A DNA stretch of 64,000 nucleotides, from NCBI GenBank assembly GCA_025450445.1, contig JANWHN010000055.1:1325-65324 (forward strand). Direction: 5' to 3'. The DNA comes from Anaerolineales bacterium. GTDB lineage: Bacteria; Chloroflexota; Anaerolineae; Anaerolineales; UBA11579. The translations under genes were made by a program, and so were the position numbers. This document shows, piece by piece, positions 20,875 to 64,000 of the stretch; position 1 is the first letter of the stretch, and each line of letters starts with the position of its first letter. The notes beneath the pieces are model-generated. The model was not told the DNA's origin, made no database searches, and worked only from the letters and a program-made list of their open reading frames with translations.

Positions 20875-20882
20875 GAGCATTC

Positions 20883-33638: not shown

Positions 33639-33658
33639 TCCGAACTCCTCATTAACCC

Positions 33659-33907: not shown

Positions 33908-33948
33908 AGTTATACTTTCAATCGTTCAAGTCCTAATCAACCCAAAAA

Positions 33949-34872
33949 ATGAAACGCGCCATCCAGATTTCCTTTTTCGCTTTACTTACCTGTTTGCTTT
34001 CTGTCGCCGCGGTTCGCGGCTCCCTTCCTGAGAAAGGTCCTGTTGAAGGCGACGCCGTCAATGGCGGGCGGATCTACAACAATTGGATGCTCGCTTTGGA
34101 TCTCTCGCCGCCAGCTGGCGAGCATCCATTGTGGCTGGACCAGGATTCAAATCCGCGCAGTGGCGTAGTTACTTGGCGCTGCACAGAATGTCACGGCTGG
34201 GATTACAAAGGCGCGGAGGGATCCTACAACGAGAGCTCTTCTCACTACACGGGCTTCCCCGGTCTTGGCAATTCCATCGGCTCAAGCCACGATCAAGTAA
34301 TGGCTTGGTTGGACGGCACCAACAACCCCGATCACAACTTTCTCTTCTATACGACTTCGGTTGCCCTTGAAGACCTGACTGCATTCTTGCGCACTCAACA
34401 GATCGATATGGATTTACTGATTGACCCAACCACCGGCAAGGCGTTAGGTGATTGGGAACGTGGTGGGCTCATCTACACCGAATCATGCTCGGGCTGTCAC
34501 GGGGCTGGCGGAGCCACCGTTAATTTCGGATCCCAAGCGAACCCGCTCTTTGTTGCCGATTTGGCTGAAGCTGAGCCTTGGCGGACAGTCCATGTTATTC
34601 GCTTCGGAACACCCAGTGGTCATATGCCCGCTAGCGAAGAACTTGGCTGGTCCCTTTCTCGCGTCGCCGATGTTTTAGCCTACGCTCAAACACTGCCGCG
34701 CGGCACGCCAGAATACGGGTTACAGCCAGGCGATCCTACTGACCCCTTTCAAGTCGAACGCCAGGGTGATATCCAGCCAATCATCTGGGGCGCATTCGCA
34801 ATGATGGCCGTTGTCTTAGCCAGCTTCGGATGGGATGCTCTCAAAAATCGCAGTACCAGGCGAGCCAAATAG
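33949..34872 (+). CDS. Dihaem c-type cytochrome with signal peptide and C-terminal TM anchor
   Basis: CTECHG and CSGCHG motifs; hydrophobic C-terminal helix IIWGAFAMMAVVLASFGW. Confidence 0.75.
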   Translation: MKRAIQISFFALLTCLLSVAAVRGSLPEKGPVEGDAVNGGRIYNNWMLALDLSPPAGEHPLWLDQDSNPRSGVVTWRCTECHGWDYKGAEGSYNESSSHYTGFPGLGNSIGSSHDQVMAWLDGTNNPDHNFLFYTTSVALEDLTAFLRTQQIDMDLLIDPTTGKALGDWERGGLIYTESCSGCHGAGGATVNFGSQANPLFVADLAEAEPWRTVHVIRFGTPSGHMPASEELGWSLSRVADVLAYAQTLPRGTPEYGLQPGDPTDPFQVERQGDIQPIIWGAFAMMAVVLASFGWDALKNRSTRRAK

Positions 34873-47039: not shown

Positions 47040-49163
47040 CTACTTGCTTTCGTCGTTGTCGGCTGCGCTCGAGCATTCTCGGTCGCCACCACCGGCTCCG
47101 GCGGTACTAAAGTCGATCCTTCCGTCGCCATCGTTGTCGATACCGTCGCTGCATTGGGCGGTCGCCTGAGTGTTGGCAGGAACGCGTGTCGGTGTGGGGG
47201 TTGCCGTTGGGTACAAGATGTAAGGCAGGTCGCTAGCCGGCACCTCATTCAATGGCCCGAATGGAATGTCGAAGAGGAAAACTGCTGCCCAACAACGATT
47301 GTTGGTAACCGGGCCTCTAAACAGCATCCACATGTTGTCGGGTCCGCGGCCGAGCGGCACATAACCCACTCCCTCAAACAATGTGTCCACGATCTGCGCG
47401 TCGTTGCTATTGCTGCGGCGGCAGTTCGCGTTCTGTTCGGGGAAGACCATCATTGCGGCCGTTGCAGGAGTCGGCGTGCAAGGTACTTGCCCCGCCGCTC
47501 CAGCTACGTTTGGTCCCGCGCACAACGTTGCAGTTGGGGTTGGCGAGCAAGTGATGAAAGTGCCCGTGTTGTCGGGAACGTAACACGGCGTTGCAGTTGG
47601 CGTCGATGTGCAAAGAACCAGGGCTGCGACCACGGCACCATTCACGCACACTGTCGGCGTCATGGTTGCGGTCGGGGTTGGCGTGCAGGTTACCTGCAGC
47701 TGTTGGCCGGGGTTGTTCGGCGCCGTTACAGATGTTGGCGTTCCCGTTGTGGTTGTCGTCGTTGTCACGCTCGGGGTCGTCGTGATGACGCCATAGCAAG
47801 TTGTGGCCGTCACCGTTGGTGTTGCCGTGTAAGTCGGCGTGCAGTTGATCACTGCAAACGGGTAGGGCGCTATGCAGTCAGTCGGCGTGTAGGTTGCCGT
47901 AGGCGTTGGTGTGCAATCTTCAAACTGACCAGCCTGGTTGTAGTAGAAGCACACGGTTGGTGTCGCCGTTTGAGTCAGGGTCGATGTTGATGTGGGCGTA
48001 CAAGTTGGAGCTTGTCCAACAGTTGAATTCGGTGGCAGGCACGGCGTGCCAGTCAGAGTTGGTGTCGGAGTGCAGGTCGCGTCAGGGGTCGACGCATTCG
48101 GGTCAACGCAAGGAGTTGTCACGGGTGGGGTTGGTGTTATGTCATCCGGGGTCGGCGATGGGGTCGGCGTGTCCGTCCGGTCATCTGGCAAGGTCGGAGT
48201 CGCTGTGGTTACTGGCGGCGTTGTCGTTGCGCTTGCTGCGGTGGGCGGCGCCACCGAGGGGTCATTCACACAAAGATCCGGGTCATCACCGGGTTGTCCA
48301 CCCCAGATCGAGGCACAGGTGTTATCCAACTCGTTGATTTCTTGAGATGGGAAGAAAGGTTGCCCTTCGATCGGATCACCAGCTTCAGGATGATCGAACG
48401 TGTCGTGATAATCCGCACCGGATGGGTTGTTGACGCCCTGATCTGTCCATGCCCACCATTTGAAGGTGGGATCATTTAGGATCGAGGAAGCCTTGAACGC
48501 GATCTCAACATGAGCCGGCTTACCTGGGTCGACACGCACCCAGGCCAGGTCAGGGTCGTCGCCTGCGCCCTGATCGAAGATCACGGAGTCAAAGCCATCG
48601 CCCGAGCTGGGTGGATCTGGCACTAGCGGGCGCTCATCGCCGACGTCATTGTCGTCGTCGCCGATGAAGCGCACACCGGCCACACTCCAGTCTTCAAGCG
48701 CTTCTTCGCTAGGGTCGTTAGCTAGGATCAAAACGTCGCCACGGCCATCGATATCCAGATCAATTTCAATTGCGTAGGTTCCGTCTAGTTGCTCAGTCCG
48801 GTCATTTTGGTCGAAGACTGTTAATCGAAAGTAGAACCATTCACCATCCTCACCCAACTCGGCAGACATAATGTCTAGGTCGGGGAAGAAGCGGTCCTGG
48901 CTTTCTGCGTTGAACGGACGCTCGTATCGGTTGATCTGCCAGCTATCGCAGCCACCGTCGGGCTGGATCGGCCCGTCGCTGCTGTAATCGGCTGGCAGTG
49001 CATCACCTGTGTTGCAGTCCCAGATGAGCTGCTCATAGACTGGGCTTCCCGGGCGACCGAAATGGTCGACCGTGGGCGCGGCGTTGCCGCCCGGGCCGCA
49101 GGCTGCAGCCAGCAGGCCGAGCAGCAAAAACAGATTGGCGTTCAGTAAAATTTTCTTTCTCAT
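47040..49163 (-). CDS. Large lipoprotein: acidic N-terminal domain, Cys-loop/TPTPT linker array, SH3b-like module, Cys-flanked DxDxD motif
   Basis: Lipobox LLAAAC after a signal peptide, GAGGAG Shine-Dalgarno, and a domain order visible in the translation. Confidence 0.75.
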   Translation of the reverse strand: MRKKILLNANLFLLLGLLAAACGPGGNAAPTVDHFGRPGSPVYEQLIWDCNTGDALPADYSSDGPIQPDGGCDSWQINRYERPFNAESQDRFFPDLDIMSAELGEDGEWFYFRLTVFDQNDRTEQLDGTYAIEIDLDIDGRGDVLILANDPSEEALEDWSVAGVRFIGDDDNDVGDERPLVPDPPSSGDGFDSVIFDQGAGDDPDLAWVRVDPGKPAHVEIAFKASSILNDPTFKWWAWTDQGVNNPSGADYHDTFDHPEAGDPIEGQPFFPSQEINELDNTCASIWGGQPGDDPDLCVNDPSVAPPTAASATTTPPVTTATPTLPDDRTDTPTPSPTPDDITPTPPVTTPCVDPNASTPDATCTPTPTLTGTPCLPPNSTVGQAPTCTPTSTSTLTQTATPTVCFYYNQAGQFEDCTPTPTATYTPTDCIAPYPFAVINCTPTYTATPTVTATTCYGVITTTPSVTTTTTTTGTPTSVTAPNNPGQQLQVTCTPTPTATMTPTVCVNGAVVAALVLCTSTPTATPCYVPDNTGTFITCSPTPTATLCAGPNVAGAAGQVPCTPTPATAAMMVFPEQNANCRRSNSNDAQIVDTLFEGVGYVPLGRGPDNMWMLFRGPVTNNRCWAAVFLFDIPFGPLNEVPASDLPYILYPTATPTPTRVPANTQATAQCSDGIDNDGDGRIDFSTAGAGGGDRECSSAADNDESK
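47454..48251 (-). repeat. Coding repeat array: 10-13 residue Cys-bounded loops alternating with TPTPT-type linkers
   Basis: Residues about 305-570 of the lipoprotein, for example C-VDPNASTPDAT-C-TPTPTLTGTP-C-LPPNSTVGQAPT-C-TPTSTS... Confidence 0.7.
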
Positions 49164-49251
49164 TTCGATCTCCTCTTTCTAGCTTGTCTCTTTTATTAGA
49201 TGAGCAAAAGCCTAGTTTGCTTCATTTTGCCCAGGCGTATTTGCTCGCTGC

Positions 49252-50139
49252 TTATCGATTAAGTTCATCATCATCTTGCGCGTTGCGGCATTGTGGGTCT
49301 CGAAGATCGGTGTACTTATCATTGTCATTATCAACCCCGTCATTGCATTCAGGTAACGAAGGTGCGATGGTCTCGCTGGGCTCTGGCGTAAAGGTCAGGG
49401 TAGGCGAGGGAGTCGGGGTGGGTGGATAGTTGACGAACGGCAACAAAGTTTCCGAGACCTGTTCGATTTGCACCGGGTCGTCATTGATCAAGAGGGTCAG
49501 GTTTTCGAGGAAAACCCAGCAGTTGGTTTGGAACGATGGCCCCTCAAATAGCACCCAGAGATTGTCAAAGCCGCGCCCGATCGGGGAGTACTCTTCGCCC
49601 GCAAATAGTGTGTCCGCAATCTCGAACACGGACCCGTTGCCTTCGCGGCAGTTGGCATTTTGCAGTGGGATAGCCGTCAGGATCTGCACAGCGACGGTCT
49701 CGCTGGGAATGACGGCTGGAACCAAGGTAGACGTCGCAGTTGACGTAGCGGTTGGCGTATCCGTGGCAGTCGGCTCGGCCTTTGCTCCACCTGGGAATAA
49801 TTGCGAAGCTCCAAACAACCCCAGCACGAGCAGAATGAGAATCAGCAGGATCCCCAATCCCCCGAATGGGAAAGAAAATCCACCTGGCTGAAAGCCGGAC
49901 TGTACATTCTTAATCAGTTCGCTTTCACTCGCCTTGGTTAATCCTTTTTGCGGCCACTCCGCTTTCATCGCAGCAGCCAGGGCGCCCTCCAGCCCGGCAA
50001 GCTCCGCGGCGAATGCCCGGCATTCTGCGCAGGTCTTGAGATGGCCTTCCAGAGCGCGTTGCTCGGATGCCTCGAGCAAACCATCGCTGGCTTGCTCGAT
50101 CCATTCGCGTGCCTGAGAATGAGAAAGCTGTGCCATCAT
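49252..50139 (-). CDS. Anti-sigma factor (zf-HC2 N-domain, one TM helix, extracytoplasmic SH3b-like + DxDxD module)
   Basis: HLKTCAECRAF (Hx3Cx2C) and the TM helix GILLILILLVLGLFG. ATGA overlap with the sigma gene. Confidence 0.75.
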   Translation of the reverse strand: MMAQLSHSQAREWIEQASDGLLEASEQRALEGHLKTCAECRAFAAELAGLEGALAAAMKAEWPQKGLTKASESELIKNVQSGFQPGGFSFPFGGLGILLILILLVLGLFGASQLFPGGAKAEPTATDTPTATSTATSTLVPAVIPSETVAVQILTAIPLQNANCREGNGSVFEIADTLFAGEEYSPIGRGFDNLWVLFEGPSFQTNCWVFLENLTLLINDDPVQIEQVSETLLPFVNYPPTPTPSPTLTFTPEPSETIAPSLPECNDGVDNDNDKYTDLRDPQCRNAQDDDELNR

Positions 50140-50696
50140 GTGGTCCTGTTTATGCCCTGCGTTCGTTTCAAATCGCCGCCCAAACGCTCCCGGGCGATCG
50201 AGAGCCGAGAATGGATCGTGCCCACGTTGACTCCAAGCGTCTCGGCGATCTCTTGGGTCGAAAGGTCGTGGTAGTAGCGCAAAATAATTGGCAGGCGGTG
50301 TTTTTCGTCAAGGTTGTTGATCGCCTGCAAAAGAGCTTGCGACTTTTCTGTTTCCATAAATTCGCGTTCAGGGTTTTGTTTGCCTGTCCCGTGACTGATT
50401 GATGGGTCAGCCAAAGTATTGGTGAGCACGGTTCGGCGTTTGCGTTGGCGCAGATAATGTCGGCTCGTATTGATCGCGATCGAGAAGAGCCATGTGTGAA
50501 ACGCGCTGTCACCCCGATAATTTTTGAGGGCCTTTAGAGCGGCGATAAAGCTTTCTTGAGTGGCGTCTTCCGCATCGGCTGCATCGTCCAGGATCGATAG
50601 GCAAAGTCGGAAAATCCTTGCTTGATGCTCATGAACAAGGTCTTCAATGGCTTTCGGGTCGCCAGAGCGACATTTAGCGAGTTGGTCTTTGTCCAA
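50136..50696 (-). CDS. ECF-type RNA polymerase sigma-70 family factor
   Basis: Region 2 (DATQESFIAALKAL..F.TWLFSIAIN) and region 4 (LSTQEIAETLGVNVGTIHSRLSIAR). TTG start. Confidence 0.9.
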   Translation of the reverse strand: MDKDQLAKCRSGDPKAIEDLVHEHQARIFRLCLSILDDAADAEDATQESFIAALKALKNYRGDSAFHTWLFSIAINTSRHYLRQRKRRTVLTNTLADPSISHGTGKQNPEREFMETEKSQALLQAINNLDEKHRLPIILRYYHDLSTQEIAETLGVNVGTIHSRLSIARERLGGDLKRTQGINRTT

Positions 50697-50849: not shown

Positions 50850-50855
50850 TTTCAG

Positions 50856-50928
50856 CGCTCTCGCCGCGACTCGAACGCGGGACCCTTTGCTCCGCAAGCA
50901 AATGCTCTATCCACTGAGCTACGAGAGC
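50856..50928 (-). tRNA. tRNA-Arg (anticodon GCG)
   Basis: Reverse complement GCTCTCG-TA-GCTC-AGTGGATA-GAGC-A-TTTGC-TTGCGGA-GCAAA-GGGTC-CCGCG-TTCGAGT-CGCGG-CGAGAGC-G. Confidence 0.85.
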
Positions 50929-50982
50929 TTGCGAGCCGCTATGCGGCTCGCGTTGGAGTTTCGTGATTTTCGAAACTCCAAC
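50929..50982 (-). repeat. Two-hairpin element, copy C, directly abutting the 5' end of tRNA-Arg
   Basis: Minus strand: TTGGAGTTTCG-aaaatca-CGAAACTCCAA followed by CGCGAGCCGC-ata-GCGGCTCGCA. Confidence 0.6.
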
Positions 50983-51020
50983 GATCTGAATTGTAACCAG
51001 CGAGGGTTATAAATTCAAGG

Positions 51021-51112
51021 CGGGGAGGGAGGGATTCGAACCCTCGTCCGAGGAAAACCCCCGGAACCCACTTAGCAGGCGGGCGCACTAGACCGGGCTA
51101 TGCGACCTCCCC
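51021..51112 (-). tRNA. tRNA-Ser (anticodon GCU), type II
   Basis: Acceptor GGGGAGG/CCTCCCC, anticodon stem-loop CCCGC-CTGCTAA-GTGGG, long variable arm, T-loop TTCGAAT. Confidence 0.9.
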
Positions 51113-51139
51113 GAGTTAACGGTGCTTGATTGTATTACA

Positions 51140-51227
<88 letters not shown>

Positions 51228-55861: not shown

Positions 55862-57244
55862 ATGCCCAAACCAATCGTTGCCATTGTTGGCCGTCCCAAC
55901 GTTGGCAAGAGCACTTTATTTAACCGCCTGGCCGGCGAACGCCTGGCTGTGGTTGATGACGTCGCCGGTACGACCCGCGATCGCTTGCATACTGAAGCCG
56001 AATGGGCCGGAGTCCCCTTCGTTATTGTTGATACGGGCGGCATTGATCCGATCAAGGTGGGGGGCAAAGGCGCAAAACGCAGGCCTTTATCTGTTGGCTC
56101 GGCTGATTTTGTTGAACAGATTCGCGACCAAGCCAAAATGGCGATCCGCGATGCGGACGCGATCATCTTTGTGGTGGATGTCGAAAGCGGGGTAACTCCG
56201 GCCGATCTCGAAGTTGCCGAGATCCTGCGCCGCGAACAACGCAAAGTTGATGGCACCCTTCAGCCTCCAGTCATACTCGCCGTAAACAAAACCGACTCCG
56301 CCGCCCGCCGCCAGGATGTGCCCGCGTTCTATGAGCTCGGCATGGGCGAGCCGTACCCGGTTTCGGGAATCCATGGCAGCGGAACGGGTGACATGCTCGA
56401 CGTCCTGATCAGCTCTCTTGACCGAAAAGAAGAAGTGGACACGACAGGGGAACAGGATCTTTCTATCGCGATCCTGGGAAAGCCTAATGTTGGCAAGTCG
56501 ACACTCTTCAATGCCCTGGTCGGCGAAGAGCGGGTCATCGTCAGCGATATCCCGGGAACCACCCGCGATTCCATTGACACGATTCTCGAATGGAACGACA
56601 AAAAAATTCGGCTGATCGACACGGCAGGTTTGCGCAAGCGGGGCAGCATTGAACCTGGCGTCGAAAAATTCAGCAGTATCCGAACATTGAAGGCGATCGA
56701 GCGGGCGGATGTCTGCCTGCTGGTTATTGACGCGGTTGAAGGCATGACCGCGCAAGATGCGCATATAGGCGGCTACATTCAAGATGCATTGAAGAGCGCG
56801 GTCATCGTGGTGAACAAATGGGACGCGATCAGCAAAGATAACTTCACGATGGAAGACTTTACCAAGCGCGTCCGCCAAGACCTGAATTTTATCGGTTACG
56901 CCCCATTGATCTTTATTTCGGCAAAGACCGGCCAGCGGGTTAAGGAAGTTCTGCCTCTCGCTACGAAAGTGGGTGAGGAGCGGTTAGCAAAAATGACGAC
57001 CTCGCAACTCAACAAGATACTTGGAGAAGCGCAAGATAAACAACCGCCACCGACTCGTTCGGGTCGCCAGCTCAAGATCTACTATGGCACCCAGGTGCGC
57101 AGCGACCCGCCGACCTTTTTGATTTACGTGAACGATTACAAGCTGGTCCACTTTACTTACAAACGCTATCTGGAGAATCAGATCCGGGCGGTGCACAGCT
57201 TTTTGGGTACACCGATCCGGCTGGTGTTCAAAGCGCGCGAGTAG
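55862..57244 (+). CDS. der: Ribosome-associated GTPase Der/EngA (two G domains + KH-like domain)
   Basis: GRPNVGKST, DTGG, NKTD; GKPNVGKST, DTAG, NKWD. Confidence 0.95.
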   Translation: MPKPIVAIVGRPNVGKSTLFNRLAGERLAVVDDVAGTTRDRLHTEAEWAGVPFVIVDTGGIDPIKVGGKGAKRRPLSVGSADFVEQIRDQAKMAIRDADAIIFVVDVESGVTPADLEVAEILRREQRKVDGTLQPPVILAVNKTDSAARRQDVPAFYELGMGEPYPVSGIHGSGTGDMLDVLISSLDRKEEVDTTGEQDLSIAILGKPNVGKSTLFNALVGEERVIVSDIPGTTRDSIDTILEWNDKKIRLIDTAGLRKRGSIEPGVEKFSSIRTLKAIERADVCLLVIDAVEGMTAQDAHIGGYIQDALKSAVIVVNKWDAISKDNFTMEDFTKRVRQDLNFIGYAPLIFISAKTGQRVKEVLPLATKVGEERLAKMTTSQLNKILGEAQDKQPPPTRSGRQLKIYYGTQVRSDPPTFLIYVNDYKLVHFTYKRYLENQIRAVHSFLGTPIRLVFKARE

Positions 57245-57435
57245 CGGGCGGTGAAGACGGGGATCGAGTTCCGCAAATATCATCATCACTGGCTGGATAG
57301 AGGGTTTCGTTAAAAGTTAAATAGGTGTGGGTCTTTCCCCGGCAGAAGATAGATGGTATTGGTAAACATATTGCAGATATCTAAGCAAAATGTTGCGAAA
57401 AATAGTGAAAGCTCGACCAAATGTCAAGCAACAAA

Positions 57436-57462
57436 AAGGCGCAAAGTTTGCGCCCTTTTTTC
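57436..57462. terminator. Bidirectional intrinsic terminator
   Basis: A-run, stem GGCGCAAA/TTTGCGCC, then T7. Confidence 0.65.
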
Positions 57463-57489
57463 TACGATGCGGTGGTTGGGGATCCGTGG

Positions 57490-57942
57490 CTACTTCGCTG
57501 AGTTGACCAGCGAAGTTAGCGTCTTTGTGACGCCTTGCAATTCGGCGGCATGCCCCTTTAGGCGACTTACATCGCCGGTCTTGAGGCCTACTTTCACATC
57601 TGAGATGGCGCCGGCTGTCTTAGCGTTGTTATCTATGATCTGTTGGGTCCAGCGCTCAAGATTGACCAACAGGTCACGGGCTTGTTTGGGCACAATGGGC
57701 AAGTTCTGGACAACTGGCAGGATTAGGTCGAGGAATTGGTTGGCGGTGCCGGCATATTTGACTGTCAGGGTATGCAGGCTGCCGATGGCTTCCGTTAGTT
57801 CCAGCGCGACTTCCTGAATCGAATCGATCATCGTCTGGTGTTCCTGGACCATGTCGGCAATGTTGTTGAGCGATCCGCTCAGTTGGTCTGAGAAACGAAC
57901 GTAACCCTTGGCGGGGCGGATGGGAAGTTTTGGCGTTGGCAT
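57490..57942 (-). CDS. All-helical hypothetical protein, unknown function
   Basis: AAGGAGA Shine-Dalgarno upstream and a terminator downstream; heptad-like Leu/Ile/Val spacing. Confidence 0.55.
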   Translation of the reverse strand: MPTPKLPIRPAKGYVRFSDQLSGSLNNIADMVQEHQTMIDSIQEVALELTEAIGSLHTLTVKYAGTANQFLDLILPVVQNLPIVPKQARDLLVNLERWTQQIIDNNAKTAGAISDVKVGLKTGDVSRLKGHAAELQGVTKTLTSLVNSAK

Positions 57943-57989
57943 TTGGTCTCCTTGGTTTTCTGCCAGTATAAAACAAGCTTGCCAGTTAA

Positions 57990-58026
57990 ATAAAAGAGCC
58001 CGCGTTAGCGGGCTCTTTTATTTTTA
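57990..58026 (-). terminator. Intrinsic terminator after the DUF1328-like gene
   Basis: Stem GAGCCCGC/GCGGGCTC flanked by A/T runs. Confidence 0.65.
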
Positions 58027-58033
58027 GGTTGGG

Positions 58034-58198
58034 TTAGGCCAATGGGCGGCGGCCAAATAGCAAGGAAACAACGAACAAGATTAGGACCAGAACGAAAAGG
58101 ATTTCGGCGATGCTCGAAGCTGTCCCGGCTAGTCCACCAAACCCCAGCACACCGGCAATCAAAGCGATGATCAAAAAGGTAAGCGCCCAACTAAGCAT
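58034..58198 (-). CDS. 54-aa 2-TM membrane protein of the UPF0391/DUF1328 type (not in the supplied ORF track)
   Basis: My translation: [61 protein letters not shown] Shine-Dalgarno 5 nt upstream. Confidence 0.75.
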
Positions 58199-58357
58199 TA
58201 ATGCTCCTTTCTGGGCAGTTTGGCCTTGTTATCCTCTAAAACGTCAGGTCCCCAGTTGCGGTTATGGGTATTGACAGAAGGCCCAGAATTCGGTTATCCT
58301 AATGGTATAGGACATGTTGGAATAGGTTGGTATAATCAGATGCGGCATTCAATAGAG

Positions 58358-59131
58358 ATGACTGAAGGGCCTCTATACCAGGCCGTTTCGGATTCCATTC
58401 TCGAGCAGATCCGTCGTGGCGAGCTAAAACCCCACCAGCGGATCCCTTCGGAGAGCGAACTCACTACTTTATATGGGGTGGGTCGCAACACGATCCGGCA
58501 TGCCCTTGCCGATCTGGCCTCAAAAGGATTTTTGCGTACTGTCCAGGGCGTGGGAACTTTTGTGACTGAGCCCTTGATCAGTAAAACAGCGGAATACCTA
58601 CTCGGATTCACGCAAGAGATGCAAATGCAAGGCAAGGGCGTGAGCAGCAAGGTCTTGGAGGCCAAAATCGTCTCGGCTGATCCATTTCTCGCACGGCGGC
58701 TAGGCCTTCAACTTGGGGCTGAGGTCGTCTACTTGGCTCGGTTGCGCTATATGGATGGGGAGCCGACCGCCATCGAGCGAGCGCACTTGCCGCATGAGCT
58801 CTGTCCAGGCATTCTCGCTTATGACTTTTCGCAGGCTTCCTTGTACCAAGTACTGGCCGAGAAATACAATCGCAAGCCCGACCACGCTGAGCAAGAAATT
58901 GAAGCAAGCCTCGCCACACCGCAAGTCGCTGAGATGCTAAACCTGACCTCGCCGGCGGTTGTTTTCGTTTTCCATCGCGAAACGCTGCTTGCGGATGGGC
59001 GCGTGATCGAATATGTGGACAGCGAAGTGCGCGCTGACCATTTCCGCTTCTATACGAATCTCAAATTGCATGCGCCAGTGCAGGATTTCGGTTTCCGCCG
59101 CCTGCCCATATCCACCTCAGTTGGCTCTTGA
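58358..59131 (+). CDS. GntR-family (HutC/UTRA subfamily) transcriptional regulator
   Basis: LPSESELTTLYGVGRNTIRHALADL winged-helix domain plus a UTRA-like C-terminal domain. The start is uncertain (ATG 58358 or 58340); TATAAT lies at 58331-58336. Confidence 0.85.
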   Translation: MTEGPLYQAVSDSILEQIRRGELKPHQRIPSESELTTLYGVGRNTIRHALADLASKGFLRTVQGVGTFVTEPLISKTAEYLLGFTQEMQMQGKGVSSKVLEAKIVSADPFLARRLGLQLGAEVVYLARLRYMDGEPTAIERAHLPHELCPGILAYDFSQASLYQVLAEKYNRKPDHAEQEIEASLATPQVAEMLNLTSPAVVFVFHRETLLADGRVIEYVDSEVRADHFRFYTNLKLHAPVQDFGFRRLPISTSVGS

Positions 59132-59137
59132 AAGCGG

Positions 59138-59166
59138 TTGTGCGCCCCTCTAGCCGTCCCTATAAT
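59138..59166 (+). promoter_or_regulatory. Candidate promoter TTGTGC-N17-TATAAT of the microcompartment operon, only 8 nt from the ATG
   Basis: Hexamers at 59138-59143 and 59161-59166. The rpiB ATG is at 59175, implying a leaderless or near-leaderless mRNA. Confidence 0.5.
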
Positions 59167-59174
59167 CCCTTCCG

Positions 59175-59729
59175 ATGACAACTGTCTCTGATTCCGAGGT
59201 TCAACAGATCGTGCAGCGGGTCGTGGCGCGGCTGCGTCCGGAGGGGGAGGCTGTTTTTGTTTCCCAGCCAAAGACCGGAGGCACGGAAAACGTGGTCGCC
59301 ATAGGGTCCGATCACGGCGGCTTTGCACTTAAAGGCGAATTGAAACTTTATTTGGTGGGCAATGGCTACGAAGTATTTGATTGTGGCACCAACAGCGCTG
59401 AAGCCGTTGACTATCCGGATTTTGCCGAAGCCGTGGCTCGCAAAGTAAGCAGCGGCGAAGCCTGGCGCGGCGTGATCGTGGATGGGGCCGGCATTGGCAG
59501 CTGCATGGCAGCCCACAAGGTCCCCGGCGTGCGTGCGGCGATGTGTTACGACCATGCCACCGCGGTCAACAGTCGCGAGCACAACGACGCCAATGTACTG
59601 ACCCTGGGCGCTGGGCTTATCGGGCCGACGCTGGCACGCCAGATCGTGAACACCTGGCTGCTCACAGAATTTGGCGGCGGCCGCCATTCCAAACGCGTTG
59701 ACAAGATTATGGCAATAGAGAGTCACTAA
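59175..59729 (+). CDS. rpiB: RpiB/LacAB-family sugar-phosphate isomerase with an N-terminal extension of about 40 aa (encapsulation-peptide-like)
   Basis: The core starts at [14 protein letters not shown], followed by [12 protein letters not shown] and [10 protein letters not shown]. The extension is [14 protein letters not shown] plus a linker. Confidence 0.85.
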
Positions 59730-60667
59730 TGGCTCCGGATTCTGAGAATGTACGCAAGATCGTTGAGATTGTCACCCGTGAAGTGCTTTTGGCCCTGGCT
59801 GAAGATGAACAGCGCCACCAACATGTTCACGGAGAAAGCTGCGCAGAAGAATGCGCGGATGGTGTTTGCGTGAAAACTTGTTTTGATCGAGTTGGTAGGG
59901 TCATCAGCGCTGGCGCGGAACGTATCACCTCCTCGCTCGGTGGCATTCCGCATGATCCGAGCGTAGCTGGCATGATCGACCACACGCTGCTCAAACCCGA
60001 CGCAACGCCGGACCAGGTTGCACAGCTCTGTTACGAAGCGCGCAAGTTTAATTTCGCTTCTGTATGTGTGAACCCATCCTACGTAAAACTTTGCGCCGAT
60101 CTATTGAAAGGCAGCCCGGTCAAAGTTTGCACTGTGATCGGCTTCCCGCTGGGTGCATCCGCCCCGGACGTGAAGATGTTCGAGACGGAGACTGCGTTGC
60201 GCGAAGGCGCCACAGAGATCGACATGGTGATTAATATCGGCGCTCTCAAGGGGCGCGATTACACATTAGTCGCTCGTGACATAGCTGGGGTAGTGCACGT
60301 AGCCCACGAAGCCGGCGCGTTGGTCAAAGTAATTATTGAGACCGCATTGCTAAATGAAGAAGAGAAGATCACCGCATGCCTGCTGGCAAAAGAAGCCGGC
60401 GCCGATTACGTGAAAACTTCGACAGGATTTTCCGGTGGGGGCGCGACAGTTGCCGATATTGCCCTAATGCGCCGCGTGGTCGGTCCGGAAATGGGCGTCA
60501 AGGCTTCGGGCGGCGTGAAGGATTACGCCGACGCCAAGAGCCTGATGGACGCAGGGGCGACTCGCATCGGCGCCAGCGCCGGTGTCAAGATTGTTGCTGG
60601 CGAAAAAGAAATGGCCACCACCCGCGTGCAAGCCGTTAAGATGCTTGAACCTGCGAAGGCTTATTAG
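59729..60667 (+). CDS. deoC: Deoxyribose-phosphate aldolase (class I) with an N-terminal extension of about 85 aa (encapsulation-peptide-like helix + Cys-rich linker)
   Basis: [42 protein letters not shown]. The extension is [18 protein letters not shown]...[14 protein letters not shown]. Confidence 0.9.
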
Positions 60668-60673
60668 GAGACT

Positions 60674-60964
60674 ATGTTAATTGCGAAGGTGATCGGCACC
60701 ACGGTGGCAAGCATCAAAGACGAGAAGCTCGAGGGGCGCAAGCTGCTAATCTGTCGCGAAACCGACGAGACTGGCAAGGCGACCGGCAAGCCCTACGTGG
60801 CAGTCGATAGCGTGGATGCGGGCATCGGCGACCTGGTGCTAACTGCTCACGGCTCCAGCGGCCGTCAAACATATCTCACCAAGGATTCGCCCGTGGATGC
60901 GGTGATCATGGCGGTGATCGATTCTCTTCAGGTTGATGGCAAAGAAGTGTTTCGCAAGAGTTAG
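60674..60964 (+). CDS. BMC-P pentameric vertex shell protein (EutN/CcmL family)
   Basis: MLIAKVIGTVVASIKDEKLEGRKLL...AVDSVDAGIGDLVL. Confidence 0.9.
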   Translation: MLIAKVIGTTVASIKDEKLEGRKLLICRETDETGKATGKPYVAVDSVDAGIGDLVLTAHGSSGRQTYLTKDSPVDAVIMAVIDSLQVDGKEVFRKS

Positions 60965-60975
60965 GCGAGGCAACT

Positions 60976-62448
60976 ATGGCTGAACTAGACAAAGACCTGC
61001 GCTCCATCCAAGAAGCCCGCTCAATGGTTGAGCAGGCTTATGCTGCCCAGAAAATTTGGGCCAAGGCTACGCAAGAAGAAGTGGATCGGGTTTGCTCAGC
61101 CATGGTTGATGCTGCGTTCAACGCATCTGAGCGACTTGGCCGAATGGCCAGCGAAGAGACCGGCTATGGTGTTCCCGAGCACAAGAAGTTAAAGAACCAA
61201 TTCGCGTCTCGGCATGTGTGGGAAAGCATCAAGGACGTCAAGACTGTTGGCGTTGTGCGCCACGACCCGCAGACGCGGGTCTACGACATCGCCTGGCCGA
61301 TGGGCGTGGTGGCTGCGCTAACCCCGAGCACCAATCCCACCTCGACAACGATCAACAAGATCCTCATTTCGGTGAAGGCGCGCAACGGCGTCATCGTCGC
61401 CCCCCATCCTTCGGCAGTGAATTGCTGCGTGGAGACGGCTAAGCTGATGGCGCAGGCCGCGGCGCAAGCTGGGGCGCCAGAAGGCTTGATCCATTGCATG
61501 TCCCAGGTCAGCCTGCAGGGCACCAATGAGCTGATGAGCCATCGTCACACCGCGGTGATTTTAGCGACTGGCGGCAGCCCGATGGTGCGGGCTGCTCATT
61601 CGCAGGGCAAACCGGCATATGGCGTTGGTCCGGGCAATGTGCCGGCCTATGTCGATCGCAGCGCGGATCTCGAAAAGGCGGCCCGTTACATCGTTGCCAG
61701 TAAAGCCTTTGACTTCTCTGTGATCTGCGCGACCGAGCAGGCCGCAATTGTTGACCGCCCTGTGGCTGAGCGCTTCGAACAATTGATGAAGAACGAAGGC
61801 GCTTATTTTATGGACGAAGCGCAAACGCAGGCGATGCGGACAACTCTCTTTCATCCTGATGGCAGCATCAATACCGCCACGGTTGGCAAATCGGCGCAAG
61901 TTTTGGCTGGAATGGCAGGGTTCAGCGTTCCGAGCAATGCCCGCATCCTTGTCGCCCGTTTGGAAAAAGTCGGTCGCGAGGAACCGCTGTCGCGTGAAAA
62001 ATTGACAACCGTGCTCGGCTGGTACTTGGTTGACGGCTGGGAGCAGGGCTGCGATCGGGCCATTGAAATGATCATGTTCGGTGGGCGTGGCCATAGTGTG
62101 ATCGTGCACACCACTGACGACAAAATCGCCATGGCATTTGGTCTGGAGAAACCCGTTTTCCGCATAGGTGTAAACACGATGGGCACACTCGGCACGATCG
62201 GTCTCACCACTAAAGTGATGCCGTCCATGACCCTCGGTTCCGGCGGCATCGGTGGCGCGATCACAGGCGACAACATCACTGTCCATCACTTATTCAATAT
62301 CAAGCGCCTGGCTTATGAAACCGTCGCCCCGCCGGATTCAGCGATGCGACCTGGAAGCAGATCGGCCGGTCCTCTGTTTGGACCCGATGCACAACAGATC
62401 GAAAAAATTGTCGCAGAAGTAGTCAAGGACATCCTGCGCGCACGATGA
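60976..62448 (+). CDS. CoA-acylating aldehyde dehydrogenase (PduP/EutE type) with a C-terminal encapsulation-peptide-like helix
   Basis: IQEARSMVEQAYAAQ, catalytic Cys block FDFSVICATEQA, and C-terminal tail AQQIEKIVAEVVKDILRA. Confidence 0.9.
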   Translation: MAELDKDLRSIQEARSMVEQAYAAQKIWAKATQEEVDRVCSAMVDAAFNASERLGRMASEETGYGVPEHKKLKNQFASRHVWESIKDVKTVGVVRHDPQTRVYDIAWPMGVVAALTPSTNPTSTTINKILISVKARNGVIVAPHPSAVNCCVETAKLMAQAAAQAGAPEGLIHCMSQVSLQGTNELMSHRHTAVILATGGSPMVRAAHSQGKPAYGVGPGNVPAYVDRSADLEKAARYIVASKAFDFSVICATEQAAIVDRPVAERFEQLMKNEGAYFMDEAQTQAMRTTLFHPDGSINTATVGKSAQVLAGMAGFSVPSNARILVARLEKVGREEPLSREKLTTVLGWYLVDGWEQGCDRAIEMIMFGGRGHSVIVHTTDDKIAMAFGLEKPVFRIGVNTMGTLGTIGLTTKVMPSMTLGSGGIGGAITGDNITVHHLFNIKRLAYETVAPPDSAMRPGSRSAGPLFGPDAQQIEKIVAEVVKDILRAR

Positions 62449-62495
62449 AAGAGCGCGAGCAAAAATTTTCGCAGCGTAGATAAAGGAGAGAAGAA

Positions 62496-62822
62496 ATGGC
62501 ACAAGAACTAGGTTTGATCGCTCTGGGCATGGTGGAAACCCGTGGCCTGGTGGGCGCCGTGGAGGCAGCTGACGCAATGGTCAAAGCTGCCAACGTGACG
62601 CTCATCGGCTCGGAGTATGTCGGCGGAGGCTTCGTGACCGTAATGGTCCGCGGCGACGTCGGCGCGGTGAAAGCCGCCACCGATGCAGGAGCCGCGGCAG
62701 CCAAGCGTATCGGCGAGCTCGTATCGGTGCATGTGATCCCGCGCCCGCACGAGAATGTCGAAATGATCTTGCCGCAAAGCAGCCGGGGTGGGTTTGGTGG
62801 CCGCACCGGGGCTAAGTCATAG
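62496..62822 (+). CDS. BMC-H hexameric shell protein (single BMC domain, PduA/EutM-like)
   Basis: [26 protein letters not shown]...[13 protein letters not shown]. Confidence 0.95.
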
Positions 62823-62830
62823 GTAGGGCG

Positions 62831-62892
62831 TAGACGTTGCCTGCTCGGCGCAGCCGAGCAGCAACTCTAGCGCGAACAGTTTCACCGTTCGC
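62831..62892 (+). repeat. Two-hairpin element, copy D, between the BMC-H and BMC-T genes
   Basis: TAGA(C)GTTGC(C)TGCTCGGC-gca-GCCGAGCAGCAACTCTA followed by GCGCGAACA-gtttcac-CGTTCGCA. Confidence 0.6.
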
Positions 62893-62963
62893 AACGCGAC
62901 GCCTGCCCTTTGCTCATTGCGCGCTGGATGGCGATTCGCGTTGCTCGAAGAATGGAGTAATTG

Positions 62964-63593
62964 ATGGCAGAAGAAAAATTTTCCTTACGCTGTTACTGCT
63001 ACCTGGATCGAATGCAGCCACAGTACGCAGCCTTCGTTGGCACGATCACTCAAGGTGATCTTCCTACGGAAGGGATGGCATCTCTGTATGTAGAGATGGC
63101 GCCCGGCAACGAGGCGTTCCGCATGGTGGATATCGCCGTTAAGGCGACCGAAGCCAAACCCGGCGCGCAGCTGGTCGAACGCGAATTCGGCATGTTCGAA
63201 GTCCATTCGCACAACCAGTCTGCAGTGCAAGAAGCTGGCAAAGCTGTGCTGGATCGCTTGGGTCTTAGGATCGAAGATCGCATCCGGCCAAAGATCGCTT
63301 CGATGCAAATCATCACCAATGTCGATCCTTATCAGGCGCAGTTGCTCAACCGCTTCCGCCGAGGCAGTATGCTCGTGCCCGGTGAGACGATGTTGGTCCT
63401 CGAAGTTGCGCCAGCTGCTTATATCAACCTGGCTTGCAACGAAGCTGAGAAGAAAGCTAGCATTAAAGTGATGCATGTTTCCTCAGTCGGGCGCTTTGGC
63501 CGCATGTGGCTGAGCGGATCTGAATCCGAGATCATCACTGCCAACGAGGCTGCGACCCAAGCGATGAACGCCCTTGAAGGAATTGACGGCTAA
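62964..63593 (+). CDS. Tandem BMC-domain shell protein (BMC-T type)
   Basis: Two BMC-like halves (...MVDIAVKATEA.. and ...LEVAPAAYINLACNEAEKKA...). GGAG Shine-Dalgarno before ATG 62964; the track start at 62961 is a TTG. Confidence 0.75.
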   Translation: MAEEKFSLRCYCYLDRMQPQYAAFVGTITQGDLPTEGMASLYVEMAPGNEAFRMVDIAVKATEAKPGAQLVEREFGMFEVHSHNQSAVQEAGKAVLDRLGLRIEDRIRPKIASMQIITNVDPYQAQLLNRFRRGSMLVPGETMLVLEVAPAAYINLACNEAEKKASIKVMHVSSVGRFGRMWLSGSESEIITANEAATQAMNALEGIDG

Positions 63594-63595
63594 TC

Positions 63596-63952
63596 ATGCC
63601 GAAAGTTTTTTACACCGAGCGCGATATCGAAGACCTTGCTAAGCAAGGGGTCAAATCTATCAATGTCAATGACGACGTCGTGGTGACTGACGCAGCGCGC
63701 GAGAAGGCTCGCCGGGTTGGCGTCGACCTGATCGTTGAACGGCCTCCGTCAGCAAGCAAGCCGGCAAGCGCTCCCCAACCAACTGGTGCGCACATGTCTG
63801 CTCCATCTGCGCCAACCCGGCCCGCGCAAGAAAGCACCGGTGATCTGGAAACGCGCGTCTATAACTCGGTCAAGGCGCGCCTCAATGGGCAAGTAGATGA
63901 CGCCCTGTTGCGCACCATCGTGCAGCGCGTGCTCAAGAGTCTCGGCCGCTAA
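63596..63952 (+). CDS. Small BMC-associated protein: EutQ-N-terminus-like module, Pro/Ala/Ser linker, C-terminal encapsulation-peptide-like helix
   Basis: FYTERDIEDLAKQGVKSINVNDDVVVTDAAREKARRVGVDLI resembles, from memory, the N-terminal 45 aa of EutQ. The C-terminus is DDALLRTIVQRVLKSL. Confidence 0.6.
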   Translation: MPKVFYTERDIEDLAKQGVKSINVNDDVVVTDAAREKARRVGVDLIVERPPSASKPASAPQPTGAHMSAPSAPTRPAQESTGDLETRVYNSVKARLNGQVDDALLRTIVQRVLKSLGR

Positions 63953-64000
63953 TGCTGTTCGGCCGCGTGCGCGGGGTCGCGATCAGCACGATGAAATATC
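63952..64000 (+). CDS. Start of a second BMC-P (EutN/CcmL) gene, truncated by the window end
   Basis: TAATG overlap; the translation MLFGRVRGVAISTMKY matches the M..(A/G)(K/R)V.G.V..T.K start of EutN/CcmL proteins. Confidence 0.65.
   Translation, partial: MLFGRVRGVAISTMKY

What the first reader, a model, noticed from the sequence alone, without database searches (positions are those of the whole stretch)
58358..64000. Deoxyribose-phosphate-aldolase type bacterial microcompartment locus (SPU-like), truncated by the window edge
The same-strand, tightly spaced genes are: GntR/UTRA regulator, RpiB-family isomerase, DeoC, BMC-P, CoA-acylating aldehyde dehydrogenase, BMC-H, BMC-T, a small EP-bearing protein, and a second BMC-P cut at nt 64000. 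DeoC splits deoxyribose-5-P into glyceraldehyde-3-P and acetaldehyde. The acylating dehydrogenase would trap the acetaldehyde as acetyl-CoA, which is the canonical aldehyde-sequestering logic of metabolosomes. The gene set matches the bioinformatically defined sugar-phosphate-utilisation (SPU) class of BMC loci. To my knowledge no member of that class has been characterised biochemically. The phosphotransacylase (PduL-type), cofactor-recycling enzymes and further shell genes are expected just beyond the window.
Basis: partly seen in the sequence, partly recalled or inferred. Interest (0 to 1): 0.7.

Follow-up and report, generated by a model that had tools for sequence, protein, structure and literature searches.

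The report
Known-type deoxyribose-phosphate microcompartment locus (SPU6)

Summary
Window 58358-64000 (+) encodes GntR/UTRA, an RpiB-like protein, DeoC/DERA, BMC-P, an acylating AldDH, BMC-H, a CcmP-like BMC-T(dp), a 118-aa protein and the start of a second BMC-P.

The SPU reading is right, and the locus can be placed in subtype SPU6 of Anaerolineales. Three parts of the interpretation fail:
- SPU is no longer uncharacterised. Dwyer et al. 2024 assayed the DERA and RPI of an SPU6 locus with the same architecture.
- No PduL, AckA or alcohol dehydrogenase lies beyond the edge. A 99.83 %-identical metagenome contig extends the window by 1.39 kb and shows only two more BMC-P genes, then signal peptidase.
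- The RpiB-like protein has Asp in place of the catalytic Cys, as in all SPU RPIs, so it is probably a packaging partner rather than an isomerase.

Two details appear new:
- The "small EP-bearing protein" is a stand-alone homologue of the EutQ N-terminal shell-cargo linker (hhalign 91.7 %, E 7.7e-07).
- The DERA N-extension carries four Cys, invariant among its 120 closest homologues, on a predicted hairpin.

Verdict: new member of a known kind, low-to-moderate interest.

The parts
58271..58333 (+). Promoter-like site (TTGACA-18-TATCCT, 58271-58300) followed by the conserved 22-nt motif ACATGTTGGAATAGGTTGGTAT (58312-58333). This is a candidate operator of the GntR regulator.
   Evidence: Promoter scan. 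The block is conserved upstream of gntR in L082, L083 and L002. The motif is unique in the window, with 0 expected by chance. Function is inferred.
58358..59131 (+). GntR-family regulator of the HutC/UTRA subfamily, 257 aa.
   Evidence: Pfam GntR E 7.2e-20 and UTRA E 5.6e-41. Best NCBIfam matches are HutC/PhnF-like. The orthologue occupies the same position in L001, L002, L082 and L083.
59175..59729 (+). RpiB-like protein, 184 aa. It has an N-terminal amphipathic helix (res 8-21, nt 59196-59237) and Asp103 in place of the catalytic Cys. It is a probable non-catalytic packaging partner of DERA.
   Evidence: Pfam LacAB_rpiB E 1.3e-52. The alignment to RpiB structure 3ph3 shows 'vivDgag' against 'ivicgtg'. 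D103 occurs in 51/51 and H136 in 51/51 linked homologues. Helix scan. Dwyer 2024 found the SPU6 RPI inactive on R5P and in complex with DERA.
59729..60667 (+). Deoxyribose-5-phosphate aldolase (DERA), 312 aa; the signature enzyme. It has a 77-aa N-extension made of an amphipathic helix (res 5-31) and a Cys hairpin (res 37-52, nt 59837-59884), followed by a class I aldolase barrel (78-294).
   Evidence: NCBIfam deoC 278.6 bits (cutoff 117.3). PDB 6d33 E 1e-90 over res 78-294. D165/K229/K258 are present and conserved in 84/84. AF2 model: H5-31, E37-43, E46-52. C38/C42/C47/C51 are invariant in 120/120.
60674..60964 (+). BMC-P (pentamer/vertex protein) no. 1, 96 aa.
   Evidence: Pfam EutN_CcmL E 2.7e-27.
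60976..62448 (+). CoA-acylating acetaldehyde dehydrogenase, 490 aa, catalytic Cys251. Its C-terminal 40-aa tail ends in an amphipathic helix (res 473-489, nt 62392-62442), read as a C-terminal encapsulation peptide.
   Evidence: PDB 5j78 (acetylating acetaldehyde dehydrogenase) E 1.5e-146 over res 5-450; the tail is unmatched. NCBIfam TIGR02518 569.8 bits. Highest helical moment in the protein lies at 475-488. A C-terminal EP is the SPU6-specific arrangement.
62496..62822 (+). BMC-H hexamer shell protein, 108 aa.
   Evidence: Pfam BMC E 1.1e-29. PDB PduA/EutM-type hexamers E 1e-41 to 1e-35.
62964..63593 (+). BMC-T(dp): a tandem permuted, CcmP/CsoS1D-like gated trimer, 209 aa. The pore-gating Glu73-Arg74 pair is conserved.
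   Evidence: PDB CcmP 4ht5 E 4.6e-65 and CsoS1D 3f56 E 1.6e-45. NCBIfam CcmP model 260.9 bits, below the cutoff of 340. E73/R74 occur in 31/31. Start codon from relatives.
63596..63952 (+). 118-aa EutQ-N-like linker protein. It has a small N-domain (res 1-47), a Pro/Ala-rich disordered linker (48-80) and two C-terminal helices (81-116).
   Evidence: The family has 267 close members and 528 representatives, with no Pfam family. AF2 model. hhalign against the EutQ N-terminus: Prob 91.7 %, E 7.7e-07, residues 3-115 against 2-100. Multi-repeat relatives hit NCBIfam EutQ positions 2-100 and TIGR02536. It is present in all SPU6-type loci that reach this position and absent from other SPU subtypes in the sample.
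63952..64000 (+). Start of BMC-P no. 2 (106 aa in full), cut by the window end. BMC-P no. 3 (92 aa) follows off-window, and the locus then ends.
   Evidence: Sequence. L085 overlaps the window at 99.83 % over 1203 nt and carries BMC-P 106 aa, BMC-P 92 aa, then Peptidase_S26.

Best explanation
The region is the first 5.6 kb of a roughly 6.4-kb, ten-gene SPU6-type bacterial microcompartment operon of an Anaerolineales (Chloroflexota) bacterium.

Proposed working:
1. A HutC/UTRA-type GntR regulator controls one operon from a promoter just upstream of its own gene. This step is inferred.
2. [quoted passage not shown]
3. [quoted passage not shown] This activity was shown for an SPU6 orthologue by Dwyer et al. 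2024.
4. The lumen also holds a CoA-acylating acetaldehyde dehydrogenase that converts the confined acetaldehyde to acetyl-CoA plus NADH. This is inferred from family membership and the intact catalytic Cys.
5. DERA, the RpiB-like protein and AldDH each carry a terminal amphipathic helix of the same type (..IVxxVxxxL..) for encapsulation.
6. The RpiB-like protein has Asp in place of the catalytic Cys. It most likely acts as a non-catalytic partner or solubiliser of DERA rather than as an isomerase.
7. The 118-aa protein is a stand-alone version of the EutQ N-terminal module. Its N-domain would dock on the shell and its two C-terminal helices would grip the cargo encapsulation peptides. This is inferred from homology to Salmonella EutQ residues 1-99.
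8. The locus has no phosphotransacylase, alcohol dehydrogenase or PduS. NAD+/NADH and CoA/acetyl-CoA therefore have to cross the shell, most plausibly through the BMC-T(dp) pore, as proposed by Dwyer et al. This remains untested.
For: - Gene identities.
- Catalytic residues are intact and conserved: DERA D165/K229/K258 in 84/84, AldDH C251 in 39/39, BMC-Tdp E73/R74 in 31/31, RpiB D103 in 51/51.
- The SPU6 hallmarks given by Dwyer 2024 and Sutter 2021 are all seen here: GntR/UTRA first gene, RPI then DERA, C-terminal EP on AldDH, one BMC-H, one BMC-Tdp, three BMC-P, no PTAC or PduS, Anaerolineae host.
- The locus end is defined by L085 (99.83 % identity) and by L083, L001 and L002.
- No recurrent PTAC, AckA or ADH in the flanks of 16 related loci, and none among the 50 of 56 ORFs of at least 100 aa scanned in the rest of the window.
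- Shared EP-like helices.
- Homology of the 118-aa protein to the EutQ N-terminus. EutQ R67, L89 and V93, which contact the EP, align with invariant R87, I108 and V112.
- A multi-repeat relative lies next to a cupin-only EutQ gene.
- EutJ is present in about half of the sister loci. Sutter 2021 places the SPU6 AldDH and BMC-Tdp next to EUT3.
Against: - Nothing here is experimental for this organism. Shell assembly, encapsulation, induction and substrate are all untested.
- The window and its relatives show no nearby genes supplying dR5P (deoB, deoA/D, deoK or transporters), so the physiological substrate rests on the enzyme family and on one orthologue assay.
- The EutQ link is remote: about 22 % identity, hhalign probability 91.7 %, and a direct NCBIfam hit of the window protein only to TIGR02536 at E 0.044.
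- Foldseek found no significant structural match for the 118-aa protein.
- The C-terminal helix of the 118-aa protein also resembles the cargo EPs, so a plain EP reading is not excluded.
- How NAD+ and CoA are recycled is unexplained.
Confidence: 0.8

Rival explanations
1. One reading: a canonical complete metabolosome, in which PduL-type phosphotransacylase, acetate kinase, alcohol dehydrogenase and more shell genes follow just beyond nt 64000.
For: Most characterised metabolosomes (PDU, EUT) and SPU1, SPU4 and SPU7 carry a PTAC. Some SPU6 loci are reported to have an Fe-ADH.
Against: L085 is 99.83 % identical to the window end. It shows only BMC-P, BMC-P and then signal peptidase within 1.39 kb. 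L083, L001 and L002 end the same way. No recurrent PTAC, AckA or ADH occurs in 122 flank ORFs of 16 loci.
Confidence: 0.03
2. The compartment processes a sugar phosphate other than, or in addition to, dR5P. The Asp-variant RpiB-like protein would be an active isomerase for an unusual (deoxy)pentose phosphate that feeds DERA.
For: The Asp103/His136 pair is strictly conserved (51/51), which suggests selection on the site. The protein still scores above the NCBIfam rpiB equivalog cutoff, 156.2 against 138.65. Dwyer et al. note that RPIs have broad specificity and tested only R5P. Axen 2014 mentions a deoxyribulose/deoxyribose-5-P pathway.
Against: The orthologous SPU6 RPI showed negligible R5P isomerase activity and formed a roughly 1:1 complex with DERA. 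LacA, which has the same Asp, is the non-catalytic partner in LacAB. SPU5 lacks RPI altogether. DERA is about 65 % identical to bona fide DERAs.
Confidence: 0.15
3. The 118-aa protein is simply a small cargo or accessory protein carrying a C-terminal encapsulation peptide. It is not a shell-cargo linker.
For: Its last helix, LRTIVQRVLKSLGR, has the same amphipathic pattern as the enzyme EPs. A disordered linker before a terminal helix is the classic EP layout.
Against: Both the N-domain and the C-terminal two-helix unit align with EutQ 2-100, including the EP-binding residues. In Salmonella that unit is the EP receptor, not an EP. Relatives carry 2-3 copies of the N-domain, which suggests multivalent docking. 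The 47-aa N-domain is too small to be an enzyme.
Confidence: 0.3
4. The locus is a decaying or non-functional remnant, or the shell proteins do not form closed compartments.
For: There is no experimental evidence for compartments in any Anaerolineae. Some related MAG contigs lack AldDH/BMC-T or BMC-H/BMC-T (L010, L018, L033).
Against: All nine ORFs are intact, with catalytic and gating residues conserved. Gene order is kept across relatives ranging from 62 to 99 % identity. A full H + T + 3P shell set is present.
Confidence: 0.05

Closest known systems
SPU6 locus of Chloroflexi bacterium GWB2_54_36 (Dwyer, Sutter & Kerfeld 2024, Commun Biol, PMC11585597); SPU6 subtype of Sutter et al. 2021
   Same: Gene set and order match: GntR/UTRA, RPI, DERA, AldDH, one BMC-H, one BMC-Tdp, three BMC-P and small hypothetical protein(s). 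DERA catalytic numbering is identical (D165, K229, K258). DERA has a roughly 70-aa N-extension of a helix plus two strands. RPI has Cys->Asp. AldDH carries a C-terminal EP. There is no PTAC or PduS. The host is in Anaerolineae/Chloroflexi.
   Different: It is a different genome: the conserved RPI His is at position 136 here against 152 in the paper, so the RPI N-terminus is shorter. This window lacks the EutJ gene that about half of the sister loci carry. I could not retrieve the GWB2_54_36 sequences to give percent identities.
Other SPU subtypes (SPU1-5, 7) and the SPU-type archaeal microcompartments of Hodarchaeales (PMC12747264)
   Same: They share the DERA + AldDH core chemistry, the RpiB-like protein with Asp, the BMC-P triplet and a Cys-rich N-extension on DERA.
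   Different: Those loci place BMC-Tdp and BMC-H directly after DERA. Their AldDH belongs to another clade (about 30 % identity here) and carries an N-terminal EP. They usually encode PTAC and/or PduS-type MNdh for cofactor recycling. They lack the 118-aa EutQ-N-like gene at E <= 1e-3.
EUT microcompartments: Salmonella/E. coli EutQ N-terminal linker (Yang et al. 2025, PMC12487888), EutJ, and the EUT3 subtype
   Same: The 118-aa protein aligns with EutQ residues 2-100: H1/H2 shell-binding, a flexible region, then H3/H4 EP-binding. Sister loci carry EutJ. The AldDH is of the EutH_ACDH/AdhE-N type, which Sutter 2021 places next to EUT3 together with the BMC-Tdp.
   Different: There is no ethanolamine ammonia-lyase, no EutQ cupin/acetate-kinase domain and no EutD. 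The signature enzyme is DERA. So it works partly like EUT in assembly but is not a EUT locus.
Beta-carboxysome CcmP / alpha-carboxysome CsoS1D
   Same: The BMC-T here is a tandem permuted BMC protein 50-55 % similar to CcmP, with the Glu-Arg gating pair.
   Different: It scores below the NCBIfam CcmP cutoff, 260.9 against 340. There is no RuBisCO or carbonic anhydrase context.

Membership tests
SPU (sugar-phosphate-utilising) BMC locus | Shell genes are present: at least one BMC-H (PF00936) and BMC-P (PF03319). | tested here: met
   BMC E 1.1e-29; EutN_CcmL E 2.7e-27; BMC-Tdp by PDB CcmP E 4.6e-65.
SPU (sugar-phosphate-utilising) BMC locus | DERA (PF01791, DeoC type) with intact Asp/Lys/Lys active site and an N-terminal extension absent from free DERAs. 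| tested here: met
   NCBIfam deoC 278.6 bits. D165/K229/K258 present. The 77-aa extension is unmatched by any PDB DERA. Free DERAs in L043, L044, L057 and others lack it.
SPU (sugar-phosphate-utilising) BMC locus | Acylating aldehyde dehydrogenase (PF00171) with catalytic Cys and an encapsulation peptide. | tested here: met
   Cys251 present. Terminal amphipathic helix at 473-489.
SPU (sugar-phosphate-utilising) BMC locus | RpiB-type protein (PF02502) adjacent to DERA, with catalytic Cys replaced by Asp and an N-terminal EP. | tested here: met
   D103 and H136 present. Helix at res 8-21.
SPU (sugar-phosphate-utilising) BMC locus | Triplet of BMC-P paralogues. | tested here: met
   One complete and one truncated copy lie in the window. 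The second and third are complete on L085, which has a 99.83 %-identical overlap.
SPU6 subtype | The EP of AldDH is at the C-terminus (N-terminal in all other SPU subtypes). | tested here: met
   The N-terminus aligns from residue 5 with PDB 5j78. The 40-aa C-terminal tail carries the strongest amphipathic helix.
SPU6 subtype | BMC-Tdp present; PTAC (PF06130) and PduS homologue absent from the locus. | tested here: met
   for this genome. for orthologues. Elsewhere in the genome cannot be checked.
SPU6 subtype | Shell-protein HMM 'colour' clades (fuchsia/pink BMC-H, bright-blue BMC-Tdp, squash/bordeaux/silver BMC-P) as in BMC Caller. | not testable with these tools
SPU6 subtype | Host in class Anaerolineae (Chloroflexota). 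| tested here: met
   The nearest DERA and whole-locus relatives are Anaerolineales MAGs and Levilinea saccharolytica. Flanks are syntenic with Anaerolineales MAGs.
Functional metabolosome (any type) | The shell assembles and encloses the enzymes; the pathway is induced by its substrate. | not testable with these tools
   This needs EM, proteomics and growth experiments.
EutQ N-terminal shell-cargo linker module (for the 118-aa protein) | Sequence homology across EutQ residues about 1-99 (H1/H2, flexible region, H3/H4). | tested here: met
   hhalign Prob 91.7 %, E 7.7e-07, 98 columns. E 1.7e-4 against the single E. coli EutQ. Relatives hit NCBIfam PRK15457 positions 2-100 at E down to 9.4e-07. 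R67, L89 and V93 align with invariant R87, I108 and V112.
EutQ (full-length acetate kinase) | C-terminal cupin domain (PF06249). | tested here: not met
   The protein is 118 aa with no Pfam hit. It is therefore not a EutQ orthologue, only a homologue of the N-terminal module.
EutQ N-terminal shell-cargo linker module (for the 118-aa protein) | Binds shell proteins through the N-part and cargo EPs through the C-terminal helices. | not testable with these tools
   This needs pull-down, ITC or in vivo localisation.

The most novel reading that the evidence does not exclude
SPU6 compartments may be assembled by a minimal, stand-alone EutQ-N-type linker, the 118-aa protein. It would dock on the shell with its 47-aa N-domain and capture the shared ..IVxxVxxxL.. 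encapsulation helices of DERA, RPI and AldDH with its C-terminal helix pair. That would extend the EutQ 'bridge' mechanism, shown only for Salmonella Eut, to a non-EUT organelle.

In addition, the Cys38/51 and Cys42/47 cross-strand pairs, invariant among the closest homologues, in the DERA N-extension could form a metal- or redox-sensitive element controlling core aggregation. All of this would operate in a metabolosome that lacks any internal NAD+/CoA recycling enzyme.
Probability: 0.45. Interest if true: 0.5.

Novelty: new member of a known kind. Interest (0 to 1): 0.3.

Why it matters
As a locus it adds little. SPU is one of the commonest BMC types, and SPU6 in Anaerolineae is catalogued and partly characterised.

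Its value lies in three places:
- **Defined extent.** It is a clean ten-gene, roughly 6.4-kb example of the smallest SPU design. It confirms that this design has no PTAC, ADH or PduS, which sharpens the open question of how such metabolosomes recycle NAD+ and CoA.
- **Annotation of the conserved 'hypothetical'.** Recognising it as a EutQ-N-like linker gives a testable assembly model. It also offers a compact parts list for engineering DERA-containing compartments, since DERA is an industrial C-C bond-forming enzyme.
- **An experimental handle.** The 4-Cys hairpin on the signature enzyme is a specific target for mutagenesis. The cultured carrier Levilinea saccharolytica makes experiments feasible.

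Tried and rejected
- **Exact look-ups of the window's own AldDH and DERA** found no contig on record. The window was therefore extended indirectly, through a cluster-mate of the 118-aa protein (L085).
- **Pfam** misses the BMC-T and the 118-aa protein.
- **Foldseek of the AF2 model of the 118-aa protein against PDB** gave nothing significant; the best E was 0.44.
- **Rfam scan of 56000-64000** found no family at gathering score, only two sub-threshold hits on a hairpin at 57986-58043 outside the locus.
- **The 138-nt BMC-H/BMC-T spacer** folds strongly (-61.8 kcal/mol, z -2.7), but its sequence is not conserved in relatives. I do not claim a regulatory RNA.
- **Search for pta, pduL, ackA, Fe-ADH, deoA/B/D or deoK in the rest of the window** found only housekeeping genes. 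A Zn-ADH at 28890-29915 lies 30 kb away on the other strand and is not linked.
- **Supplementary tables of Dwyer 2024** are not held, so per-subtype counts could not be checked.
- **A mobile-element or recent-transfer origin** was considered and rejected. GC is uniform, and the housekeeping flanks CoaE-DAC-YbbR-Der are syntenic in relatives.

Full report
**1. What is in the sequence**

Nine ORFs lie on the + strand from 58358 to the window end. They are separated by 43, -1, 6, 11, 47, about 140, 2 and -1 nt.

Family assignments are strong.
- GntR + UTRA, 58358-59131.
- RpiB/LacAB, 59175-59729.
- DeoC, 59729-60667.
- EutN/CcmL, 60674-60964.
- Aldedh, 60976-62448.
- BMC, 62496-62822 (all).

The 210-aa ORF gets no Pfam hit. 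It matches the tandem-permuted shell trimers CcmP (4ht5, E 4.6e-65) and CsoS1D (E 1.6e-45) over both domains, so it is a BMC-T(dp). Its real start is probably ATG 62964.

The 118-aa ORF, 63596-63952, has no Pfam family.

The last 49 nt begin an ORF reading MLFGRVRGVAISTMKY. A 2,593-nt metagenome contig, L085, is 99.83 % identical over window 62798-64000 (2 mismatches in 1,203). It completes this ORF as a 106-aa EutN/CcmL protein.

**2. Where the locus ends**

Exact look-ups of the window's own proteins failed. L085, however, extends 1,390 nt past the window. It carries BMC-P (106 aa), BMC-P (92 aa), an 85-nt gap and then a signal peptidase I gene.

The same ending is seen in the syntenic Anaerolineales loci L083, L001 and L002. 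I also ran a Pfam census of 122 flank ORFs from 16 related loci. It found only extra GntR/UTRA regulators and housekeeping genes as recurrent families, with no recurrent PTAC, acetate kinase or Fe-ADH.

I scanned 50 of the 56 ORFs of at least 100 aa in the rest of the window. They are housekeeping genes and include no pta, pduL, ackA or deo genes.

So the operon has ten genes and spans about 6.4 kb.

**3. What kind of locus it is**

The nearest DERA homologues (71-100 % identity) and whole-locus relatives are Anaerolineales MAGs and the isolate Levilinea saccharolytica KIBI-1. More than 20 of these loci keep the order RpiB-DERA-BMC-P-AldDH-BMC-H-(EutJ)-BMC-Tdp-118aa-BMC-P-BMC-P.

The literature places this squarely in SPU subtype 6.
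- Sutter et al. 2021 state that Anaerolineae contain SPU6. They also place its AldDH and BMC-Tdp next to EUT3.
- Dwyer et al. 2024 describe an SPU6 operon with GntR/UTRA, RPI, DERA, AldDH, one BMC-H, one BMC-Tdp, three BMC-P and two hypotheticals. It has a C-terminal EP on AldDH, found only in SPU6, and no PTAC or PduS.

Every one of these features is present here. Even the DERA active-site numbering is identical (D165, K229, K258).

The claim that no SPU member has been characterised is outdated. The SPU6 DERA cleaves dR5P. The SPU6 RPI is inactive on R5P and forms a roughly 1:1 complex with DERA. Separately, shells of SPU-type archaeal compartments have been reconstituted.

**4. Enzyme details**

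*DERA.* Residues 78-294 match class I DERA structures at E 1e-90. The protein scores 278.6 bits on the NCBIfam deoC equivalog model.

*AldDH.* It is of the AdhE-N/EutH_ACDH type: PDB 5j78 at E 1.5e-146 and TIGR02518 at 569.8 bits. Cys251 is intact, and a 40-aa C-terminal tail lies outside the homologous region.

*RpiB-like protein.* It reads 'VIVDGAG' where active RpiB has 'IVICGTG'. Asp103 and His136 are invariant in 51 of 51 locus-linked homologues. This is the substitution Dwyer et al. report for all SPU RPIs.

*BMC-Tdp.* It keeps the Glu73-Arg74 gating pair in 31 of 31 homologues.

*Amphipathic helices.* The strongest helical segments sit at protein ends and share one pattern.
- RpiB 8-21: [14 protein letters not shown].
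- DERA 6-19: [14 protein letters not shown].
- AldDH 475-488: IEKIVAEVVKDILR.
- 118-aa protein 105-118: LRTIVQRVLKSLGR.

**5. The 118-aa protein**

It defines a conserved family, with 267 close members and 528 representatives at E <= 1e-3. The protein has three parts.
- An invariant-rich N-domain, residues 1-47, predicted as beta-alpha-beta-beta-alpha-beta at pLDDT about 82.
- A variable Pro/Ala linker.
- Two conserved C-terminal helices, residues 81-116.

Foldseek found nothing significant. Sequence profiles were more informative.
- Some relatives have two or three copies of the N-domain plus the same C-terminal helices. They hit NCBIfam EutQ (PRK15457) positions 2-100 at E down to 9.4e-07, and TIGR02536 at E down to 2.9e-09.
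- hhalign of the family against enterobacterial EutQ N-termini gives 91.7 % probability, E 7.7e-07, residues 3-115 against 2-100. Against E. coli EutQ alone E is 1.7e-4.
- One multi-repeat relative lies directly after a cupin-only EutQ gene.

Yang et al. 2025 studied Salmonella EutQ residues 1-99. H1/H2 bind the shell. H3/H4 bind cargo EPs, and L89A and V93A abolish that binding. In the alignment R67, L89 and V93 fall on invariant R87, I108 and V112 of the 118-aa family.

I therefore read this protein as a stand-alone EutQ-N-type shell-cargo linker, not as an EP-bearing cargo. Confidence is about 0.55. Within my sample it is specific to SPU6-type loci. Dwyer et al. stated that the hypotheticals had no homology to BMC proteins, so this link appears new.

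**6. The DERA N-extension**

AF2 predicts a helix at 5-31 and a hairpin at 37-43/46-52 with low-to-moderate confidence. This matches Dwyer's description.

C38, C42, C47 and C51 are invariant in the 120 closest homologues. By position they form two cross-strand pairs, 38/51 and 42/47.
- A subclade (L013, L014, L016, L021) has lost exactly the inner pair.
- Other SPU subtypes keep four Cys with other spacings, or have a C..HH..C variant.
- Free DERAs have no extension.

The papers I could read do not mention this. A metal, redox or assembly role is speculation.

**7. Regulation**

A promoter-like TTGACA-18-TATCCT lies upstream of gntR, followed by a 22-nt motif at 58312-58333. Both are conserved in close relatives, and the motif is unique in the window. 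This is a plausible autoregulated operator but is untested. No Rfam family lies in the locus.

**8. Verdict**

The most interesting residue of the analysis is the EutQ-N-like linker and the conserved Cys hairpin. Both are testable in the cultured carrier Levilinea saccharolytica.

Noticed in passing
window 59837-59884 (DERA residues 37-52): Four cysteines (C38, C42, C47, C51; CxxxCxxxxCxxxC) are invariant in 120/120 close DERA homologues. They sit as two cross-strand pairs on a predicted beta-hairpin of the N-extension. A subclade (L013, L014, L016, L021) lost only the inner pair. Other SPU subtypes keep 4 Cys with other spacing, or C..HH..C. This is not mentioned in the SPU papers I read.
   Followed up: partly
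window 58271-58333: A conserved promoter-like site is followed by the 22-nt motif ACATGTTGGAATAGGTTGGTAT upstream of the GntR gene. The block is shared with L082, L083 and L002, and the motif is unique in the window. It is a candidate operator.
   Followed up: partly
window 62823-62960; L001 13297-14190 and about half of the related loci: A EutJ-family actin-like gene (NCBIfam PRK15080, E 2e-98) sits between BMC-H and BMC-Tdp in about half of the SPU6-type loci but is absent here. In its place the window has a 138-nt spacer with two strong hairpins (-61.8 kcal/mol, z -2.7) whose sequence is not conserved.
   Followed up: partly
L010, L018, L033: Some related MAG contigs show reduced loci. L010 and L018 lack AldDH and BMC-Tdp, and L033 lacks BMC-H and BMC-Tdp. 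L003, L004, L005 and L011 have a tandem duplicate of the first BMC-P. These could be real variants or assembly artefacts.
   Followed up: no
L087 1130-1879; L088 479-1216: Relatives of the 118-aa protein carry 2-3 copies of its N-domain plus the same C-terminal helices. One follows BMC-H and BMC-Tdp. Another follows a cupin-only EutQ gene, i.e. a 'split EutQ' arrangement.
   Followed up: partly
window 57490-57942 (-) and 58034-58198 (-): A conserved 150-aa ORF without any Pfam family and a 54-aa DUF1328 membrane protein lie just upstream of the locus on the opposite strand. Both are also neighbours in L001, L082 and L083. A hairpin at 57986-58043 between them gives two sub-threshold Rfam hits.
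   Followed up: no
window 47043-50696 (-): An ECF sigma factor gene (50139-50696) is followed by two large ORFs of 295 and 707 aa with no Pfam match at E <= 1e-8. These may be an anti-sigma factor and its partner.
   Followed up: no
window 18271-22049 (+): A cluster of PALP enzyme, JAB-domain protein, ThiS-DUF4395 fusion, thioredoxin-like protein and ThiF-rhodanese resembles a sulfur-carrier-protein (CysO/Mec-type) pathway.
   Followed up: no
window 30462-34869 (+): Genes for Rieske protein, cytochrome b and two c-type cytochromes indicate a bc-type respiratory complex in this Anaerolineales genome. Three tRNA genes (Arg, Ser, Ser) lie at 50855-51227 (-).
   Followed up: no
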